The position numbers and the translations under genes are program-made. From sequence record OQ885479: 64,000 nt of DNA; one strand, written 5' to 3'. This document shows, one piece after another, positions 37,977 to 58,032 of the stretch. The stretch comes from Escherichia phage SUT_E1520. The notes below the pieces were generated by a model. The model saw only the letters and a list, made by a program, of their open reading frames with translations, was not told the DNA's origin and ran no database searches. How positions within the stretch are numbered: position 1 is the stretch's first letter; each line of letters begins with the position of its first letter.

Positions 37977-38750
37977 TTAGTCATCCAGATCGCTTGCAGC
38001 TTCTGTGTCAATACCTTTCTGGGAGCCTGCATTGCTATTACCAGATTTGGCATCATCATCTTTATTCTCACGACCTTCCATGAAGGCTAGAATTGCTTCT
38101 TTCTGCTCTTCATAGGTAGGAACCGGATAGGTTTGTTCCAGAGAAGGAACTTTTTCGAACTTAATGATGTCGCCATCTTCATCACACATAGCTTCACCGA
38201 TCAGATCTACATCTGCAGCATATTGCTTAGATTCTGCACTGTTAGGATCTTGCAGCTTAATCTGGAACTGCATAGCAGCAATCTGCTGTACATCATACTC
38301 AGTATCGAAACCTTTACCTTTTTTCTCGATAGAAATATCAATATCAAACGGAGTTGCCAGGCTCAGCTGCTTCATGATAGACTGGATGCCTTTCAGAATA
38401 GTAGCCTTGACTTCCATTACTTTCAGTTTGTTATCAGAACGGTCGATAACAAAAGCGATATAGTTTTTCTTCGGTTTCAGCGGAACACGATTACCATCTT
38501 TATCCAGCTCTTTCTCGAAGAAGCCCATCTCATGAACCGGATCAGCTTTACCACGAACAAAGCTCTCTTTGTCACGGTTAAAACGGAGACATTCGAAAGG
38601 AGCTACGTTACCCTCTTTATTAGTCAGCCAATAGACATAACGTGGAAGAACACCAGAAACGATACGAACACGAGTGATACCGTTGTTGAACTTCAGGAAT
38701 TCGATTTTATCGTTAGAACCGCCAGTAGTTTCGCCCCAAGACTTAGCCAT
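37977..38750 (-). CDS. D11-like hypothetical protein
   Basis: 257-aa ORF with acidic C-terminus; synteny. Confidence 0.6.
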   Translation of the reverse strand: MAKSWGETTGGSNDKIEFLKFNNGITRVRIVSGVLPRYVYWLTNKEGNVAPFECLRFNRDKESFVRGKADPVHEMGFFEKELDKDGNRVPLKPKKNYIAFVIDRSDNKLKVMEVKATILKGIQSIMKQLSLATPFDIDISIEKKGKGFDTEYDVQQIAAMQFQIKLQDPNSAESKQYAADVDLIGEAMCDEDGDIIKFEKVPSLEQTYPVPTYEEQKEAILAFMEGRENKDDDAKSGNSNAGSQKGIDTEAASDLDD

Positions 38751-39027
38751 ATTTTATTTCCTCTTTAAAGATTAATTTCGATTTGTTAATTGCGATTAGT
38801 GGGTTAGTGTCGATTACTAAACGTGGTATCCATACTGGAACATATTGTATGTCCAAACTAGGATCGTTTGTAAACTTGTATTCGGCATAATTTCGTAGAC
38901 TTAAAATTCCTAGATATTCTGCCAGTTGTCTATTAGACAATTTATTTGGATTATCAACTATTGTTGATTCATTCAAAATGAATGAGGAACCGACCAATAA
39001 TTGATGAGCATCAGGCTCTGTAAGCAT
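38743..39027 (-). CDS. hypothetical protein
   Basis: 94-aa ORF downstream of an early promoter; weak SD. Confidence 0.4.
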   Translation of the reverse strand: MLTEPDAHQLLVGSSFILNESTIVDNPNKLSNRQLAEYLGILSLRNYAEYKFTNDPSLDIQYVPVWIPRLVIDTNPLIAINKSKLIFKEEIKYG

Positions 39028-39164: not shown

Positions 39165-39235
39165 CTAAAATTTTTATTTTTCTGCTTCGGACTTTCTTAT
39201 CAATCCGAAACTTTCTCTCTCAAATTTATGTATAT

Positions 39236-39267
39236 ATTATACATCATTTATGAGCTGTTGCCAAATG
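39236..39267 (-). promoter_or_regulatory. second tandem promoter copy (TTGGCA-17-TGnTATAAT) overlapping the helicase 3' end
   Basis: near-identical -10 plus leader block (CTCAAATTTATGTATATATTATAC) about 100 bp upstream of the first copy; followed by hairpin TTCGGA-N12-TCCGAA at about 39187-39211. Confidence 0.4.
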
Positions 39268-51377: not shown

Positions 51378-51408
51378 ATTTAAACTCCTCTCTCAAATTT
51401 ATGAATCT

Positions 51409-51437
51409 ATTATACAGAAATTTTTTGCACTATGCAA
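51409..51437 (-). promoter_or_regulatory. PN25-like strong early promoter (TTGCAT-17-TATAAT with AGATTCATAAATTTGAGAGAGGAG leader)
   Basis: -10 and transcribed leader match the T5 PN25 promoter as I recall it; upstream AAAAATTTATTTGC A-tract. Confidence 0.65.
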
Positions 51438-51445
51438 ATAAATTT

Positions 51446-51688
51446 TTACGATTCCTTGAGTAAAGAAGCAAGTTCAGCATAGACTTTATCTAATTCAAAG
51501 CCGATACGAAGAGACACGTTTGTTTTCCGTTGTTTAAGTAACCACTCGGATATGTTAGGGATGCCAGCTAATCTATGCGGTACCACCCTACATAGCTTTT
51601 CCGAAGTGTCGTAAACAGGAACTTTACGTTCTTTTACTGGAAACTTCCTTGTTTCCCATTTTTTATTCTTCACTGTCATTTCTAGCAC
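51446..51688 (-). CDS. hypothetical protein
   Basis: 80-aa ORF. Confidence 0.45.
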   Translation of the reverse strand: MLEMTVKNKKWETRKFPVKERKVPVYDTSEKLCRVVPHRLAGIPNISEWLLKQRKTNVSLRIGFELDKVYAELASLLKES

Positions 51689-54452
51689 CTAGCTCTGCCA
51701 TTGCTTCATCATGCATATGTTTCTCCTCATCAGTCATAAACTTATAGGGGATTGGCATACACTCGATTTTACAATAGGTTCTGTACCAGTCTACAATATT
51801 TTCAGTGTTCATATCCTTACCAATACCCATCATACCAAGATACATTCTGGCATATTTTGGGTTAGCACTCTGACCTGTTTTAAGGAAGAAATCTTTCTTC
51901 TTACCTTTCAGAGCTTCTATGAATGGTTTGATAGTGACATTTGAACACTTCTTAATATCTTCCCAGAACATCTCGTGCATTTTATGGAAGAATGCCGCTC
52001 GATCATTAGGTTTATCCTTGATATATTGTTCAACATGCTCAACTGTTACATCTTTAATAGACTCAAGATGATAGTAGCGAACAAGAAGTAGTTTAGCTTC
52101 ATACGCATCAGCATGACGTGGAGCACAATAATCAGGAGTTGAATATAAAATAGCTTTGATTCGCTCTTCCGTATATTCCTTCCCAGCACCTTCGATAGTT
52201 CCCCAGCTTTCACTGAAAATATCAATAGTTGCACCCTGATCAAGCAAGTAATAACGTAAAGTACTAGTATAATTCCTAGATTCCAGCTCTCTACGACGTG
52301 CGTATAATTGTTGTGCTAACTCCAGCCAACCTTCGTCAATGTTATATTGCTCAGAACCTGCGGAGAATCCACTCGTAGATTTATCAATAAAATAATAAAT
52401 GTTCTGAGCGCCACGGTCGCGCCTGATTGCTTGGAAACGCATGTTTGGCGCTTGGTTGCTGGTTCTAGTAATAACGAATACGTTATCAAAATAGTTGAAG
52501 TCAACACCACTTGTTACGGATGGACTACATAATAAGCAATCAATTTGTTGATCAATTAGCTCATTAGTTGTGTAATCCAGAATACGTCGAATATCTACAT
52601 CGGATGTAGAATTTGAGTGGATTTCCTTAACTAACGCACCCGTATTACGACGCAATGCCATACCCTTCTCATTCAGTTCATCCGGCCCACAGTCAGATAC
52701 TAGGATAGATTTCTCACCCATCTCTAGAGAAGTCTGAAGTGCAACCCAAATACTGGATTCATCCGGGAACTCATAAGCATGAGCTTTTGATAGCATTTTA
52801 CGGTGATGGTTATAAAATGCTACTGGTTTATCAAACTCAATCAAAGAACCATATGCTTCAATTGTTTCTGCACTAATATCCCCATCAGATAATATAATGA
52901 TTTTTGCAGTTGCAAGAATATCCCGAAGAACCTGAATACACTCGCGACGTTGTTTAACAACCGGGGCGAATAATAGGTCATTCATTACTGCATCACATTC
53001 ATCGATAAAGATTGCATCAATTTGACCAATAAAACTCTTGAATTTATGCAAAGAGTGAATAGTTGTGGACATACGGTCAATAGCACCCCGCTTAAAATTA
53101 AGCATATCTACAGACTTATCATATTGTCCTGCACTAAATTTCTTGGCATTTGAAGATACCAGTGCTCTAGTATTGGTAATTGCTAAGAAATTACCTTTAA
53201 TAACTCCTGAATCTAACCAACGCACAACCGCTGTAGTTTTACCTGTACCTAGACTTGCTTTTACAAAAGTCATATAACCTTCTGGTGGTACAGTATTTAA
53301 TTTCAAGAAGTTATCAGTTTCTAGAGAATTAGTTTCTAGCTTTTTAAGTGGAATACCCTTTAAAACATCAGGTATATCACGTTTAGAATTATTAACAAAT
53401 GCTTTCAGAGCCTGTTTACGACCGTTATTAAAGTAATCTTGAATATTGCGACTGTTATCTTTAGTTGCAATATATTCTGATAAGGCTGGACGGATTTCTT
53501 TTTCTAGCCATGCAAAATCAACACCATCCTCTAAGGCTCTGTGATAGAGTTTAGGTATGATACGTAGATACACTCCATCCTCAGCTTCTTCTAGTTCGCT
53601 GATAGTTTCCTCTACTTTATCAGAGGCAGCTTTTTTACCTTTAATTTGATCGAGTAAAGAGTAAAACTCCTCCTTAAACTCACCTCTAGTTGTTTCATAG
53701 TCAACCAGATTATTGGGTAAATTTACTTTAGAACCCTTAACAAATACCAGACGTGAAGCACCCTCCGCTTTAAACGGATCTACTATACCATCGGTAAATA
53801 ACGGATCTGCAAAATAGTGGAGCTGTACGGAAGAGTAATAAGCTAAGTCGGCAATATCAAAGCCATACTTTTGTCTACTACTTTCGTTGATAGATGTAAA
53901 TAAGAATTTGATTTGACCCTGAGTTACTTTAACATTAGATTCTAGTATTAAGTGCATTCGGATACCTGGTTTTAGCCCAGCCGAAGACGATGCATGAGCG
54001 ATAAACCCTGCATCAAGAGGAAACATATCCTCACTAATACTATTTAACATTCTAATAATATGTCGAGCCATGCCAACAAGATCAAACTTGTTGCAACCAC
54101 CTGTATCTACAATACCATCCACGTCCATTGCAATTATATGACTTGGGTTAGATACATTAAAGTTGCCCTTCTTACGTCGCACATTATTTTTAGGTGTAAG
54201 ACATCGACCTCGTACCGCAACGATATGAGGGTCAGACGTTAAACGTCTCATAAGAGGAAGCATTTCTACTAGGGTTTGAGGATCAACTTCATCAATTACA
54301 TCAAACTTGAAGGGCATTGAAGCTGGTTTACCTTCAGGATGCTTTGAGGAAAATCTTTTAGCAAAAAGATAGTCTTCTGCTTTAACTTCTCGCCAATTGC
54401 CTGTGGCTAAATCGCGATGAAATCCTGCATGACCTTGTAGGATTGAGAACAC
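51663..54452 (-). CDS. SF2-type helicase / ATPase resembling replication-origin-binding proteins
   Basis: Walker A ASLGTGKTT, DECD box IFIDECDAV, QAIRRDRG motif-VI-like; start set at GTG 54452 with AGGAG 7 nt upstream; alternative ATG at 54317. Confidence 0.65.
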   Translation of the reverse strand: MFSILQGHAGFHRDLATGNWREVKAEDYLFAKRFSSKHPEGKPASMPFKFDVIDEVDPQTLVEMLPLMRRLTSDPHIVAVRGRCLTPKNNVRRKKGNFNVSNPSHIIAMDVDGIVDTGGCNKFDLVGMARHIIRMLNSISEDMFPLDAGFIAHASSSAGLKPGIRMHLILESNVKVTQGQIKFLFTSINESSRQKYGFDIADLAYYSSVQLHYFADPLFTDGIVDPFKAEGASRLVFVKGSKVNLPNNLVDYETTRGEFKEEFYSLLDQIKGKKAASDKVEETISELEEAEDGVYLRIIPKLYHRALEDGVDFAWLEKEIRPALSEYIATKDNSRNIQDYFNNGRKQALKAFVNNSKRDIPDVLKGIPLKKLETNSLETDNFLKLNTVPPEGYMTFVKASLGTGKTTAVVRWLDSGVIKGNFLAITNTRALVSSNAKKFSAGQYDKSVDMLNFKRGAIDRMSTTIHSLHKFKSFIGQIDAIFIDECDAVMNDLLFAPVVKQRRECIQVLRDILATAKIIILSDGDISAETIEAYGSLIEFDKPVAFYNHHRKMLSKAHAYEFPDESSIWVALQTSLEMGEKSILVSDCGPDELNEKGMALRRNTGALVKEIHSNSTSDVDIRRILDYTTNELIDQQIDCLLCSPSVTSGVDFNYFDNVFVITRTSNQAPNMRFQAIRRDRGAQNIYYFIDKSTSGFSAGSEQYNIDEGWLELAQQLYARRRELESRNYTSTLRYYLLDQGATIDIFSESWGTIEGAGKEYTEERIKAILYSTPDYCAPRHADAYEAKLLLVRYYHLESIKDVTVEHVEQYIKDKPNDRAAFFHKMHEMFWEDIKKCSNVTIKPFIEALKGKKKDFFLKTGQSANPKYARMYLGMMGIGKDMNTENIVDWYRTYCKIECMPIPYKFMTDEEKHMHDEAMAELGARNDSEE

Positions 54453-54539
54453 AACAATACTCCTGTGTTGGAAATGAAATAAGTTTTCTTTAGGACTATT
54501 CAGAAAGAATAGAACAACTGTTACTGTCAATTTCTCAAC

Positions 54540-54890
54540 AAATTAATCGCAAATACTGAAGTGGGGTGGCAACTTCCACTTTCACGCTGCGCTGCTGCTT
54601 TGCTATACCGCACAAATCCTTGAGGATGGCCGCTAAGCCAGATTTGCTCACCTAATGCTTCATGTACTAGCTCATACTAGATGCAATATAACTTACAGAA
54701 TCACGTCTCGGAGTTTTTCACTCCTCCCGTCTCACTTCACAACCACCTCTATCTAGGTTGCTTCGAGGCCTTACCAGGGTTCCTACGGGACGCAGATCGC
54801 TAAGTATTCTATTAACTATTTGTTTAAAAACTAACACGTAACAGTTAAAACAACCCTTAATTGGGCAGCCTAACTGTTCCGTATCGCGGA
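54540..54890 (-). other. ORF-free, relatively GC-rich island transcribed from an upstream promoter; candidate structured RNA or origin
   Basis: no credible ORF in any frame (the track's single ORF here initiates at a non-ATG codon); several short stems visible by eye (for example TCCCGT...ACGGGA, GGAGT-GAAAA-ACTCC). Confidence 0.3.
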
Positions 54891-54951
54891 TTGTAAACAA
54901 GAAAAATTAGCAAAATCAATTTTTACTAATATCTCTCAATTCAATATAAAT

Positions 54952-54980
54952 ATTATATCAAGATTTTGAGCATCCTGCAA
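54952..54980 (-). promoter_or_regulatory. sigma70 promoter (TTGCAG-17-TATAAT) reading into the ORF-free island
   Basis: rc of 54975-54980 is TTGCAG, 17-bp spacer, rc of 54952-54957 is TATAAT; downstream leader resembles the early-promoter leader but has no SD or ATG. Confidence 0.4.
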
Positions 54981-55019
54981 GTAAAATTTTCCGGATGGTG
55001 CTATCATTGGTCTTGAGTA

Positions 55020-55048
55020 CGGATAAAACCGAGCCAAAATGACTCGGT
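55020..55048 (-). terminator. rho-independent terminator
   Basis: ACCGAG-N9-CTCGGT followed by TTTTAT on the minus strand. Confidence 0.65.
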
Positions 55049-55074
55049 AATCAGAGTTCAGCTAATAAAAATCA

Positions 55075-55464
55075 TTAGTCATTTAATCCCGGAACATATA
55101 TCCCAACACGGTTTAATTGTTCTTTAGCTTCTTTGAGAATATCTGGAGTGTACTCCCAAATATCATTTTCCACCTGTAAAAGATGGGGCGAACAACCATC
55201 ATCCGGCACACGACATATGGCAAAACCACGTGGATGGAACAAAGAGAAATTTAGGGCAACAATTAAACCCATAGCAGACAACTCATTCCAATCCAGTTCC
55301 CATTCCCTGGCGTATCCAGACAGGAAAACGCCAATGCATGGATCATCTATTTGCTGCTCAGGAAAAGTGAAGGAGGCTTGTCTTACCCCCAACCAACGTT
55401 GTAGCAGCTTCTCCGCACGTTTCACCAAACTAGGGTCAATCTGACGCCAATATACTTGTTCCAT
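55075..55464 (-). CDS. hypothetical protein, paralog A
   Basis: 129 aa; shares PCIG, W-ELD-MGL-ALN and C-terminal VPGL motifs with the adjacent gene. Confidence 0.55.
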   Translation of the reverse strand: MEQVYWRQIDPSLVKRAEKLLQRWLGVRQASFTFPEQQIDDPCIGVFLSGYAREWELDWNELSAMGLIVALNFSLFHPRGFAICRVPDDGCSPHLLQVENDIWEYTPDILKEAKEQLNRVGIYVPGLND

Positions 55465-55473
55465 TCTGCCTCC

Positions 55474-55902
55474 TTAAGCAGTTAAACCTGGGATCATATA
55501 CCCGAAACGGCGAAGTTTTTGGATACCATCATTCACTTCTTCTGGTGAGTAAGACCAACCGTAACGTTCATTAACTTGAAAACCAGGAGATTCACTAGTT
55601 TTATAGTTAACAACGAGGCGATGCTTAGCAGGCATAAACAGCTTATAGTTTAACGCAAAAACTAAGCCCATTTCATCTAACTCTTTCCAGCCGACAATCT
55701 CTTCAAGACCCTCCTCTACCTGAACAATTAAACCAATACAGGGGGCTTCATCAATATCATCTTTAAAAGCAAAGTAGATTTCGTTATTCTCACACCATAT
55801 TTTCAAAGAGTTAATAGCCTCATTATACAGGCTAGCTGGAAGAGTACGCCAAAAGTTAACCAAAATTGGGTTAGCTTCTTTAGAGAATACATTATTGAAC
55901 AT
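55474..55902 (-). CDS. hypothetical protein, paralog B
   Basis: 142 aa; same motif set as paralog A. Confidence 0.55.
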   Translation of the reverse strand: MFNNVFSKEANPILVNFWRTLPASLYNEAINSLKIWCENNEIYFAFKDDIDEAPCIGLIVQVEEGLEEIVGWKELDEMGLVFALNYKLFMPAKHRLVVNYKTSESPGFQVNERYGWSYSPEEVNDGIQKLRRFGYMIPGLTA

Positions 55903-55904
55903 AT

Positions 55905-56417
55905 TTACACCTTAAATTGTTGTAAGGATTTACACATTTCAAGATCTGGGCTAAATTCTAGCATATAGCTAACAGCTTTTAAATCTTGAAGATTTATACC
56001 AGTCCTACCGTTGACTATAACCGTTGGATACTGATACATCATAGCACCCGCATCATCAAGCACACACCAATGTTTGAGCTTATGCTTTTCAACGAAGCGA
56101 AGAACAGAATTACCCCTAGATAATCCACCACCAGTAAAATCCGTTGTACCAAGAAAACGATCGATAAGGCCTAATCCGGTCATAATCTGAACGTTCTCCA
56201 TCTCATTTCTGACAGAGAACCAAGATGATACTCCAACAATCATTATTGGAGAAGGACGAATAAAGTCCTGAAAAGCCTTGAGAAGCGGTTTGAAAACCCA
56301 ATCACTTCCAAAGAAAATCTTTTCATCATCAGGTGCATGATAGTGGGAGATGCTCGAATTGAGCACCCCATCAATGTCTAGAAAAATAATTGGAGTATTA
56401 CTTATTTCCTGACACAT
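55905..56417 (-). CDS. HAD-superfamily phosphatase-like protein
   Basis: 170 aa; HAD motif I IIFLDIDGVLN at N-terminus; start overlaps the Sir2-like gene stop. Confidence 0.6.
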   Translation of the reverse strand: MCQEISNTPIIFLDIDGVLNSSISHYHAPDDEKIFFGSDWVFKPLLKAFQDFIRPSPIMIVGVSSWFSVRNEMENVQIMTGLGLIDRFLGTTDFTGGGLSRGNSVLRFVEKHKLKHWCVLDDAGAMMYQYPTVIVNGRTGINLQDLKAVSYMLEFSPDLEMCKSLQQFKV

Positions 56418-57975: not shown

Positions 57976-58003
57976 ACCTTTCTCCTCTCAAATTTATAAA
58001 TCT

Positions 58004-58032
58004 ATTATATATAAATTTTTGGCTGAAAGCAA
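58004..58032 (-). promoter_or_regulatory. PN25-like early promoter (TTGCTT-17-TATAAT) with conserved leader
   Basis: rc reads TTATTTGCTTTCAG...TATAATAGATTTATAAATTTGAGAGGAG. Confidence 0.6.

What the first reader, a model, noticed from the sequence alone, without database searches (positions are those of the whole stretch)
54453..55074. ORF-free structured island next to the origin-binding-type helicase gene
About 600 bp in an otherwise tightly packed genome has no credible ORF in any frame. It is bounded upstream by a rho-independent terminator (55020-55048) and has its own sigma70 promoter (54952-54980). Its core (54540-54890) is noticeably more GC-rich than its flanks and carries several short inverted repeats. 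The promoter's downstream leader resembles the early-promoter leader but lacks an SD or ATG. Two readings fit: a phage-encoded structured RNA, or a replication origin placed beside its cognate origin-binding helicase. I could not recognise it as a tRNA.
Basis: seen in the sequence. Interest (0 to 1): 0.6.

Follow-up and report, generated by a model that had tools for sequence, protein, structure and literature searches.

The report
Structured leader RNA before T5 helicase
The 620-bp gene-free gap upstream of the replication helicase gene of this T5-like phage encodes a large, intricately folded RNA conserved across T5-like phages; it matches no catalogued RNA family and its function is unknown.

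Summary
Window 54453-55074 is a true ORF-free gap between the D2/origin-binding-type helicase gene (GTG start at 54452) and the upstream gene. It contains a terminator hairpin (55020-55048), a sigma70 promoter (54952-54980) and a GC-richer core, all on the minus strand.

The promoter starts a ~490-nt untranslated leader of the D2 mRNA. Most of that leader is a conserved, multi-branched RNA. A 5' hairpin is followed by an invariant motif. A ~32-bp helix, P1 (54515-54847), then closes a ~265-nt core of about ten helices.

MAFFT alignments of relatives show 44 of 113 and 36 of 106 base pairs with compensatory double changes, against 10-13 in shuffles and 6-13 in slid controls. A covariance model built only from the window-type allele finds the very different T5-type allele, phiR201 and Klebsiella phages at the same position.

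Single changes favour G:U over A:C, and the sense strand folds 22 kcal/mol better. No ORF is conserved. There are no iterons, no Rfam match, no tRNA and no second copy.

The "structured RNA" reading is supported. A DNA origin is not supported, though an RNA-primed origin is not excluded. Function is inferred only: control or processing of D2 expression, or an excised ncRNA.

The parts
55020..55048 (-). Intrinsic-terminator-like hairpin ending the upstream gene cluster (9-bp stem, UUU loop, then UUUUAUCC)
   Evidence: inverted repeat I18; -13.2 kcal/mol, z = -3.9. It is identical in T5, phiR201 and PMBT31. Analogous hairpins precede the promoter in My1, Roth37 and PSTCR5.
54952..54980 (-). Sigma70-type early promoter: -35 TTGCAG (54980-54975), 17-nt spacer, -10 TATAAT (54957-54952); predicted start near 54945
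   Evidence: Read from the sequence. T5 record AY692264 annotates a 'putative promoter' at the equivalent site. TTGC-N17-TATAAT is conserved in all enterobacterial T5-like lineages examined. It shares the TATAAT-N12-TTGAGAG signature of three other early promoters in the window.
54453..54945 (-). About 490-nt untranslated leader of the D2 helicase mRNA. Leader position p corresponds to window coordinate 54946 - p.
   Evidence: Leader length is conserved: 474-500 nt, or about 595-619 nt with a 97-nt insertion, in all lineages. No ORF is conserved.
54899..54938 (-). HP1: 5'-terminal hairpin of the leader (GAGAGA...UUUUCUU outer stem, UUAGUAAAA/UUUUGCUAA inner stem)
   Evidence: It folds at -12.7 kcal/mol, z = -4.7. 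It keeps the same register in all lineages with different sequences, and 7 of 16 pairs show compensatory changes.
54865..54882 (-). M1: near-invariant motif ACGGAACAGUUAGGCUGC between HP1 and P1
   Evidence: Single copy in the window. Conserved in Tequintavirus, Epseptimavirus, L190, My1 and, in variant form, Klebsiella phages. It always lies 236-251 nt upstream of motif M2.
54515..54847 (-). P1-closed structured domain. Long helix P1 (arms 54814-54847 and 54515-54548) plus P1b (54803-54809 / 54551-54557) enclose a ~265-nt multi-branched core.
   Evidence: MFE and constrained folds. A P1 of about 30 bp enclosing 258-268 nt appears in most lineages in the single-sequence folds; the Klebsiella phage L188 did not show it there, and T5 encloses 249-291 nt depending on which sub-helix is counted. 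The duplex search gives enclosed spans of 221-274 nt. Duplex z = -4.7 to -8.5 in 8 of 10 lineages. Compensatory pairs occur in helices 1-2 of A3 and A4.
54587..54795 (-). P2 (CUGCGU 54790-54795 pairing with GCGCAG 54587-54592) closing the P3, P4 and P5/P6 sub-domains
   Evidence: P2 differs in nearly every lineage but always pairs: CUGCGU/GCGCAG, CUACAU/GUGUAG, CUGUGU/GCACAG, CCAUAU/GUAUGG, CUAGAA/UUCUAG, CUAACA/UGUUAG, CUAGUU/GACUAG. It is 100% paired, with 8 of 9 pairs doubly changed, in A6.
54726..54789 (-). P3 sub-domain (P3 CCCGU/ACGGG enclosing hairpins P3a and P3b)
   Evidence: Helices 4-8 of A3 show compensatory changes in 10 of 18 pairs.
54710..54724 (-). P4 hairpin GGAGU-GAAAA-ACUCC (GNRA/boxB-like loop)
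   Evidence: helix 9; helix 7. The G-C to A-U compensatory change is seen in L162.
54602..54692 (-). P5 three-way junction carrying P5a and P6. The tip of P6 is the invariant hairpin C-U-[UAGC]-G-G (motif M2, GCUUAGCGGC at 54629-54638).
   Evidence: The P6 stem differs in every lineage; 8 of 8 pairs are doubly changed in A6. See also helices 11-15 in A3.
54559..54581 (-). P7 hairpin AAGUGG / CCACUU with loop AAGUUGCCACC
   Evidence: helix 16; helix 14. The U-A to G-C change is seen in L162.
54496..54512 (-). P8: small hairpin CUAUUC-UUUCU-GAAUAG just after P1
   Evidence: It folds at -5.2 kcal/mol, z = -5.6. Equivalent hairpins with other sequences occur in Klebsiella, L190 and Providencia leaders.
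51663..54464 (-). Shine-Dalgarno AGGAG (54460-54464), GTG start (54450-54452) and the 929-aa D2 / origin-binding-type SF2 helicase gene served by the leader
   Evidence: Pfam Herpes_ori_bp, E = 3e-7. PHROG 3712 'replication origin binding'. PDB herpesvirus OBP matches. T5 D2 biochemistry is described in PMC3632103.

Best explanation
The gap encodes a conserved, intricately folded RNA, here called the D2-leader RNA. It acts as RNA on the sense (minus) strand.

Shown:
- An independent early promoter sits just after a terminator. It starts a ~490-nt leader that runs into the D2 helicase gene.
- The leader has a 5' hairpin (HP1), then an invariant motif (M1).
- A ~32-bp helix (P1) then closes a ~265-nt core. 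The core is built from P2, a P3 junction, a GNRA-like hairpin (P4), a P5/P6 three-way junction tipped by an invariant UAGC tetraloop hairpin, and P7.
- A small hairpin (P8) and the ribosome-binding site follow.
- The architecture is kept while the sequences diverge.

Inferred:
- The domain is a post-transcriptional module for D2. HP1 protects the 5' end.
- The dense structure keeps a long untranslated RNA from Rho and nucleases.
- The very long P1 insulates the core and is a likely RNase III site.
- The invariant loops and junctions form a binding surface for a phage or host factor, possibly D2 itself, that sets D2 output or releases the core as a stable RNA.
For: Covariation in alignments that were not fitted to the structure:
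- A3 (12 sequences): 95.6% of cells paired. 44 of 113 pairs carry double changes, against 10.5 +/- 2.3 in shuffles and 6-12 in slid controls.
- A4 (17 sequences): 36 of 106 pairs, against 13.2 +/- 2.5 in shuffles and 7-13 in slid controls.
- RNAalifold, run without constraints, recovers the same helices.

Homology across divergent alleles:
- A covariance model built from window-type sequences only finds the T5, phiR201 and Klebsiella versions. The matches are full length, at the same locus, with E = 8e-6 to 4e-10.
- On that structure-guided alignment, 60 of 74 pairs have double changes.

Same architecture in divergent lineages:
- Helices P2, P3, P5, P6 and P7 are found at equivalent positions in 11 lineages with different sequences.
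- They score above shuffles in every lineage tested.
- P1 duplex z = -4.7 to -8.5 in 8 of 10 lineages. HP1 also covaries.

Strand:
- Among close relatives, single changes give WC->GU 11 and GU->WC 10, against WC->AC 4.
- The sense strand folds at -101.5 kcal/mol, the antisense at -79.8.

Transcription unit: the promoter and the leader length are conserved across genera, and T5 has a promoter annotated at this site.

Not coding. Not a catalogued RNA.
Against: - No transcript data were available, so the start site, processing and abundance are all inferred.
- No conserved pairing links the domain to the ribosome-binding site, so a direct translational mechanism is not visible.
- In Proteus phage Stubb the domain lies about 400 nt further from the helicase gene, which there has its own promoter. 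This fits an autonomous RNA better than strict cis control.
- The Klebsiella and Providencia P1 helices are not better than shuffles in the crude duplex test.
- Providencia and Proteus membership rests on positional helix searches plus marginal model hits (E about 0.01-0.06, partial).
- The structures used for counting were derived from one sequence in each alignment. That inflates the 'percent paired' figure, though not the double-change counts relative to slid controls.
Confidence: 0.55

Rival explanations
1. Autonomous stable non-coding RNA. The P1-closed domain is cut out of the leader, for example by RNase III in the 32-bp P1 stem, much as rRNA is released from its processing stalk. It then works in trans, as a ribonucleoprotein scaffold, a decoy or a catalytic RNA, and only shares a promoter with D2.
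For: - P1 is a long, stable, non-switchable closing helix typical of excised RNAs.
- The core has features of compact large RNAs: a multi-junction layout, a GNRA-like loop and invariant junction nucleotides.
- There is no conserved link to the ribosome-binding site.
- In Proteus phage Stubb the domain is uncoupled from the helicase start.
Against: - No evidence of cleavage or accumulation exists.
- The position directly upstream of the helicase gene, in the same orientation and behind the same promoter type, is kept in nearly all lineages.
- No second copy or other genomic context was found in the window, in IMG/VR contigs or in bacterial genomes.
Confidence: 0.2
2. Transcript-primed replication origin. 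The promoter and its structured transcript form the primer or R-loop of the central T5 origin, in the manner of ColE1 RNA II or the T4 and T7 promoter-type origins. D2 is then loaded next to its own gene.
For: - A strong promoter is followed by ~490 nt of untranslated, structured RNA, as with RNA II.
- The adjacent gene encodes the UL9-like helicase proposed as the T5 initiator (PMC3632103).
- T5 origins are reported near the genome centre (bioRxiv 10.1101/866236). The locus lies at about 59.3 kb of 121.75 kb in T5.
- Two deeply diverged alleles share one fold, reminiscent of incompatibility alleles.
Against: - There is no skew change at the locus.
- No G-rich or C-rich hybrid-forming tract or conserved DNA element lies downstream of the fold.
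- The position argument is coarse.
- In Proteus phage Stubb the element is separated from the helicase gene.
- Nothing here tests priming.
Confidence: 0.12
3. Metabolite- or ion-sensing riboswitch that controls D2 in response to a cellular signal such as the nucleotide pool.
For: It is a 5'-leader location with a conserved multi-junction core and invariant junction nucleotides. Nucleotide-metabolism genes (nrdD, Sir2) lie upstream.
Against: - There is no match to any riboswitch class in Rfam 15, even at E <= 10.
- At ~330 nt it is much larger than known aptamers.
- P1 is ~32 bp and too stable to act as a switching helix.
- No alternative terminator or SD-sequestering pairing is conserved.
Confidence: 0.07
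4. DNA-level replication origin: double-stranded binding sites or a cruciform for D2, with an unwinding element.
For: It is adjacent to the origin-binding-type helicase gene. It has AT-rich flanks with GC about 0.30 and a central genome position.
Against: - There are no iterons; all direct repeats are short two-copy matches.
- The core sequence is replaced almost entirely between alleles while pairing is kept.
- Substitutions prefer G:U over A:C, which is a strand-specific RNA signature.
- The complementary strand folds 22 kcal/mol worse.
- There is no skew switch.
Confidence: 0.04
5. Decayed or mobile DNA: a MITE-like element bounded by inverted repeats, or a small unannotated protein gene.
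For: It has ~30-bp inverted repeats about 265 bp apart. Homing-endonuclease and 97-nt insertions occur nearby in relatives. Some records annotate tiny ORFs here.
Against: - It is single copy.
- It keeps the same position in all lineages.
- The 'terminal repeats' differ between lineages and change by compensation.
- Internal helices covary as well.
- No ORF is conserved.
Confidence: 0.02

Closest known systems
Large structured non-coding RNAs of unknown function found by comparative genomics, several of them phage-associated (GOLLD, ROOL, OLE, HEARO, raiA; recalled from the Rfam and Breaker/Weinberg literature)
   Same: Several hundred nucleotides long. A multi-junction architecture supported by covariation, GNRA-type loops, invariant junction nucleotides, a narrow phylogenetic range and no known function.
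   Different: No sequence or structure match to any of them (Rfam 15 scans). It is embedded in an mRNA leader directly upstream of one specific gene and restricted to T5-like phages. It is closed by an unusually long helix.
ColE1 RNA II, and the T4/T7 promoter-type origins (established knowledge)
   Same: A promoter drives a ~500-nt untranslated RNA whose fold matters, in a replication context. Diverged alleles share a fold.
   Different: No antisense RNA I-type promoter was found and there is no hybrid-forming tract. The transcript continues into a protein gene. Priming was not tested.
Phage leader and operator RNAs that control replication or early genes: T4 gene 43 and gene 32 operators, and the lambda N leader with nutL/boxB plus an RNase III site (established knowledge)
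   Same: A 5'-leader element upstream of a replication or early gene. P4 (GGAGU-GAAAA-ACUCC) has the loop and closing pair of lambda nutR boxB. The long duplex is suited to RNase III.
   Different: Those operators are single hairpins or pseudoknots of 20-60 nt that overlap the ribosome-binding site. This is a ~330-nt autonomous domain about 65 nt upstream of the SD, with no conserved pairing to it. The boxB-like loop is not conserved outside the window-type allele.
rRNA precursor processing stalks (RNase III; established knowledge)
   Same: A ~30-bp helix formed by sequences flanking a large folded RNA.
   Different: The resemblance is purely architectural. Cleavage was not tested.

Membership tests
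Any Rfam 15 RNA family (riboswitches, ribozymes, RNase P, tmRNA, 6S, group I/II introns, Y-RNA-like, GOLLD/ROOL/OLE/HEARO and others) | Covariance-model match at or near the family's gathering score | tested here: not met
   The only hit in window 53500-56000 at E <= 10 is a 16-nt chance match, TMV_UPD-PK3, at 13 bits against a gathering score of 34. Eight relatives' loci gave no hit in the leader.
tRNA / tmRNA | Cloverleaf or tmRNA structure detectable by ARAGORN | tested here: not met
   No genes were found in the whole window.
Conserved structured RNA (generic criterion for an RNA family) | Base pairs maintained by compensatory substitutions beyond phylogenetic and positional controls | tested here: met
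   44/113 pairs with double changes in A3, 36/106 in A4 and 60/74 in A6, against 6-20 in slid controls and 10-36 in shuffles, with 0 of 500 shuffles as high.
Conserved structured RNA (generic criterion for an RNA family) | A model built from one subgroup recovers divergent members at the homologous locus | tested here: met
   Model R1, built from A-type sequences only, finds T5, L184, phiR201 and Klebsiella phages full length with E = 8e-6 to 4e-10. Providencia gives only partial matches at E about 0.01-0.06.
Riboswitch | Expression platform: a conserved alternative pairing that forms a terminator or sequesters the SD | tested here: not met
   No conserved pairing to the initiation region: z = +0.5 to -1.4 in 8 of 9 lineages. 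No terminator-like site lies in the leader. P1 is ~32 bp and stable.
Riboswitch | Specific ligand binding by the aptamer | not testable with these tools
   This needs in-line probing, ITC or similar.
Iteron/DUE-type replication origin | Repeated initiator-binding sites conserved as DNA sequence | tested here: not met
   Only short two-copy direct repeats of 8-12 nt are present. The core sequence is replaced between alleles.
Iteron/DUE-type replication origin | Strand-compositional switch or mapped initiation at the site | tested here: inconclusive
   There is no GC-skew switch at 54-55 kb; the switches are at about 32 and 60 kb and follow gene orientation. The literature says only 'near the centre'.
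RNA-primed (RNA II / R-loop) origin | Promoter followed by a structured untranslated transcript | tested here: met
RNA-primed (RNA II / R-loop) origin | Persistent RNA-DNA hybrid and an RNase H-generated primer end that starts DNA synthesis | not testable with these tools
   This needs DRIP, 3'-end mapping or replication assays.
RNase III-processed leader | Double-stranded RNA segment of about 20 bp or more | tested here: met
   P1 has 32 pairs with two single-nucleotide bulges in the window. Comparable helices are seen in the folds of most, though not all, lineages. The duplex beats shuffled controls in 8 of 10 lineages.
RNase III-processed leader | Cleavage in vivo or in vitro | not testable with these tools
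   This needs an rnc mutant comparison or an in-vitro assay.
Group I intron | P3-P9 core with a P7 G-binding site, interrupting a gene | tested here: not met
   It is intergenic rather than inside a gene. There is no Intron_gpI hit.
MITE / mobile element | Multiple copies with sequence-conserved terminal inverted repeats | tested here: not met
   It is single copy. The arms differ between lineages and covary.
Protein-coding gene | An ORF conserved in frame and position among relatives | tested here: not met

The most novel reading that the evidence does not exclude
The D2-leader RNA is a new class of large structured RNA that is a working part of T5 replication initiation. The idea is that the folded domain, cut out at P1 or still tethered to the template, acts as the cofactor or primer that recruits the bipolar D2 helicase to the central origin. 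Origin identity would then be specified by an RNA fold rather than by DNA iterons. The two co-circulating alleles would be specificity variants that co-evolve with the fast-evolving N-terminus of D2.
Probability: 0.12. Interest if true: 0.9.

Novelty: new variant of a known kind. Interest (0 to 1): 0.7.

Why it matters
T5 is a classic model phage. Its replication origin and the control of its initiator helicase have never been defined at the sequence level.

A ~330-nt covariation-supported RNA domain is conserved immediately upstream of that helicase gene in Tequintavirus, Epseptimavirus, Klebsiella and Pectobacterium phages, and probably in Providencia and Proteus phages. It is absent from Rfam 15 and I found no description of it in the literature I could search. 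It would therefore add a new family to the short list of large, complex bacterial and phage RNAs.

It also gives a concrete handle on both open questions. Defined helices can be mutated and restored. The invariant loops can be tested for protein or ligand binding. The long stem can be tested for RNase III cleavage.

For annotation, it explains why hundreds of T5-like genome records carry spurious tiny 'hypothetical proteins' or nothing at this locus.

Tried and rejected
- Rfam scans at E <= 10 on the window region, on eight relatives and on two Vibrio phages returned nothing relevant. ARAGORN found nothing.
- SD sequestration by the M1 region: duplex energies are no better than shuffles, except in My1. 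Rejected.
- M1-M2 tertiary pairing (GGCUGC with GCGGCC): considered by eye. There is no covariation, and Providencia and Proteus phages keep M2 without M1. Dropped.
- Resemblance of M1 and M2 to RNase P conserved regions (ACAGAA..CGGCUUA): recalled from memory. The order of elements is wrong and there is no RNase P hit. Rejected.
- HP1 as an attenuator-terminator: the U-tract is not conserved in Klebsiella or Providencia phages. Rejected.
- The metagenome scan with ACRGAACAGTNNGGCTGC was too unspecific. It returned 120 mostly chance loci, of which only L082 and L158 are real.
- The three-part motif scan of bacterial genomes gave 23 hits, all rejected by model R1.
- Cross-family MAFFT alignments of the core were too poor for RNAalifold. 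I therefore used family-wise alignments and a covariance model. mafft-qinsi was unavailable.
- Literature searches for a T5 transcriptome, an ncRNA or a mapped origin found no description of this element. Bourguignon 1976 is not held.
- GC skew shows no signal at the locus.
Full report
**Source and context.** The window comes from a T5-like phage (Tequintavirus). The queried stretch is 100% identical to Escherichia phage SUT_E420, and 537 phage records match it. The finding lies between two minus-strand genes.
- Downstream is the 929-aa D2 / 'replication origin binding' SF2 helicase (51663-54452). Its start is GTG at 54452-54450, with SD AGGAG at 54464-54460. Pfam Herpes_ori_bp, PHROG 3712 and herpesvirus OBP chains in the PDB all match it.
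- Wong et al. characterised T5 D2 as a bipolar helicase and proposed it as an initiator (PMC3632103).
- Upstream is a DUF7415 gene that ends at 55075.

**Check of the observation.**
- The terminator hairpin at 55048-55020 folds at -13.2 kcal/mol, z = -3.9.
- The promoter TTGCAG-17-TATAAT lies at 54980-54952. The simple scanner missed it for want of a fourth -35 match. The T5 record annotates a 'putative promoter' at the same place.
- TTGC-N17-TATAAT precedes the helicase gene in every enterobacterial T5-like lineage examined.
- The core has GC 0.42-0.48, against 0.30 in the flanks.
- The start of the leader shares TATAAT-N12-TTGAGAG with three other early promoters in the window, 4 sites against 0.03 expected. 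Two of those continue directly into GAGGAG-ATG; this one does not.
- ORFs in the gap are at most 60 aa and are not conserved in any frame among ten lineages.

**Comparative anatomy.**
- The distance from the promoter to the D2 start is 474-500 nt in Tequintavirus, Epseptimavirus, Klebsiella (Sugarland-like), Pectobacterium My1 and an unnamed lineage (L190). It is about 595-619 nt where a 97-nt insertion or extra sequence is present.
- Within Tequintavirus the first ~135 nt and the last ~100 nt of the leader are nearly identical. A ~315-nt core exists in two very different alleles of the same length. Type A is the window type; type B is the T5 type.
- Two short motifs survive in all lineages. 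M1 is ACGGAACAGUnnGGCUGC (54865-54882). M2 is GCUUAGCGGC (54629-54638). They are always 236-251 nt apart.

**Structure.** Positions are given as leader position p, which corresponds to window coordinate 54946 - p. Single-sequence folds of most lineages share one plan:
- a 5' hairpin HP1 (8-47);
- M1;
- a ~32-bp AU-rich helix P1 (99-132 / 398-431) extended by P1b;
- P2 (151-156 / 354-359);
- a P3 junction with two hairpins;
- hairpin P4 with a GAAAA loop;
- a P5 three-way junction carrying P5a and P6, whose tip is the invariant C-U-[UAGC]-G-G hairpin (M2);
- hairpin P7;
- after P1, a small hairpin P8 and the ribosome-binding site.

In those folds P1 encloses 258-268 nt in most lineages, though the Klebsiella phage L188 did not show it there. 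The model with these helices enforced is within 2-3 kcal/mol of the unconstrained minimum. P2 reads CUGCGU/GCGCAG, CUACAU/GUGUAG, CUGUGU/GCACAG, CCAUAU/GUAUGG, CUAGAA/UUCUAG, CUAACA/UGUUAG and CUAGUU/GACUAG in different lineages.

**Statistics.**
- On MAFFT alignments that know nothing of the structure, the A family (12 sequences) has 95.6% of cells paired. 44 of 113 pairs carry changes on both sides, against 10.5 +/- 2.3 in shuffles and 6-12 when partners are slid.
- The B family (17 sequences) has 36 of 106 such pairs, against 13.2 +/- 2.5 in shuffles and 7-13 in slid controls.
- RNAalifold without constraints finds the same helices.
- A covariance model of the core was built from A-type sequences only. 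It recovers T5, L184, phiR201 and Klebsiella phages full length at the homologous place, with E = 8e-6 to 4e-10. It finds no other copy in the 64-kb window.
- On that alignment 60 of 74 pairs show double changes. This alignment is fitted to the model, so it leans towards the structure.
- HP1 covaries too, in 7 of 16 pairs.
- The P1 duplex is 4.7-8.5 sd better than shuffled arms in 8 of 10 lineages, but not in Klebsiella or Providencia phages.
- A positional helix search beats shuffles in all ten lineages, with p from below 0.004 to 0.1 each.

**RNA or DNA, and which strand.**
- Among close relatives, single substitutions in paired positions give G:U 21 times (11 WC->GU, 10 GU->WC). They give A:C 4 times, which would be the wobble on the other strand.
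- The sense transcript folds at -101.5 kcal/mol and the antisense at -79.8.
- No iterons are present and GC skew does not switch here.
- The selected object is therefore the minus-strand RNA, which is the sense strand for D2.

**What it is not.**
- It matches no Rfam 15 family at E <= 10 in the window or in eight relatives.
- It is not a tRNA or tmRNA.
- It is not a conserved ORF.
- It is not repeated or mobile: single copy, fixed position, covarying arms.
- A motif scan of 185,579 bacterial and archaeal genomes gave only chance hits, all rejected by the model. In IMG/VR every hit but one lay on a T5-like contig. The exception was a short contig that the model did not recognise.
- I found no description of the element in the searchable literature.

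**Mechanism.** The shown parts are a terminator-promoter-leader-gene layout conserved across genera, and a complex sense-strand fold under selection. The rest is inference.
- A simple riboswitch-type platform is unlikely. No pairing with the initiation region is conserved, no terminator lies in the leader, and P1 is too long to toggle.
- In Proteus phage Stubb the P1-closed domain sits about 400 nt further from the helicase gene, which has its own promoter there. The domain therefore probably folds and acts as a unit.
- My preferred reading is a post-transcriptional module for D2. It combines a 5' stabiliser, a Rho- and nuclease-resistant leader and a likely RNase III site in P1. Its invariant loops and junctions would bind a factor that sets D2 output or releases the core.
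- The nearest rival is that the excised core is a trans-acting RNA.
- The origin idea survives only in its RNA-primed form. The locus is at about 49% of the T5 genome, and T5 origins are said to be near the centre, but nothing else supports it.
- The RNA allele and the D2 N-terminal allele are linked. Type A goes with at least 97% identity to the window's D2 N-terminus, type B with about 89%. Recombinants exist (L172, L186), and the first 100 residues of D2 are its fastest-evolving part. That pattern is compatible with co-adaptation or with plain linkage.

**Verdict.** The 'structured RNA' interpretation is supported and refined: a domain of the D2 mRNA leader, conserved across enterobacterial T5-like phages. 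The DNA-origin interpretation is not supported. Relative to the catalogues and literature available here this is a new RNA family, and its function is unknown.

Noticed in passing
Relatives L025 (phiR201), L170, L183, L195 and L013; the insertion point corresponds to window ~54899: A 97-nt insertion sits directly after hairpin HP1, flanked by TTTTTCTT direct repeats. It occurs with both core alleles and is absent from the window. It looks like a small mobile or recombining insert.
   Followed up: partly
Relatives L002 (BB1), L167, L173 and L181; corresponds to window ~54940-55020: An HNH/homing-endonuclease gene is inserted just upstream of the leader. It brings its own promoter and replaces the native one, while the leader is kept from GAGAGACATTAG onward.
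   Followed up: partly
window 39217-39241, 51390-51414, 54933-54957 and 57985-58009 (all minus strand): Four early promoters share TATAAT-N12-TTGAGAG, against 0.03 expected by chance. The one at 39241 is followed by a short hairpin and a second promoter about 75 nt downstream, giving tandem promoters before the 94-aa ORF at 38743-39027.
   Followed up: partly
L040 ~420-770 (Vibrio phage D254) and L041 ~700-1370 (Vibrio phage Achelous): Vibrio T5-like phages also have promoter-led, GC-richer, ORF-poor stretches upstream of their origin-binding helicase gene. These are unrelated in sequence, with no Rfam hit and no hit with model R1. They could be an analogous RNA.
   Followed up: partly
window 51663-54452; GenBank OQ990039 (L003): The public record that is 100% identical over the stretch I compared does not annotate the 929-aa helicase gene at all. 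Only a 60-aa fragment is labelled 'putative replication origin binding protein'. Other records place tiny 'hypothetical proteins' inside the leader.
   Followed up: no
window 55075-56417 and beyond: The genes just upstream of the leader are two DUF7415 paralogues and a HAD_SAK_2 ('Swiss army knife RNA repair') domain protein. In T5 a Sir2-family gene and nrdD follow. Any link between these and the RNA was not examined.
   Followed up: no
window 54153-54452 (D2 residues 1-100): The first 100 residues of D2 are the most divergent part of its N-terminal 300 residues across lineages, for example 78/92/94% in L184 and 54/70/78% in L190. The D2 allele is linked to the RNA core allele, although recombinants exist.
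   Followed up: partly
window 54710-54724: Hairpin P4 (GGAGU-GAAAA-ACUCC) has the same loop and closing pair as lambda nutR boxB (recalled from memory). The loop is GNRA-like but not identical in other lineages. The only Rfam 'hit' in the region (TMV_UPD-PK3, E = 6.9) is this hairpin read on the opposite strand.
   Followed up: no
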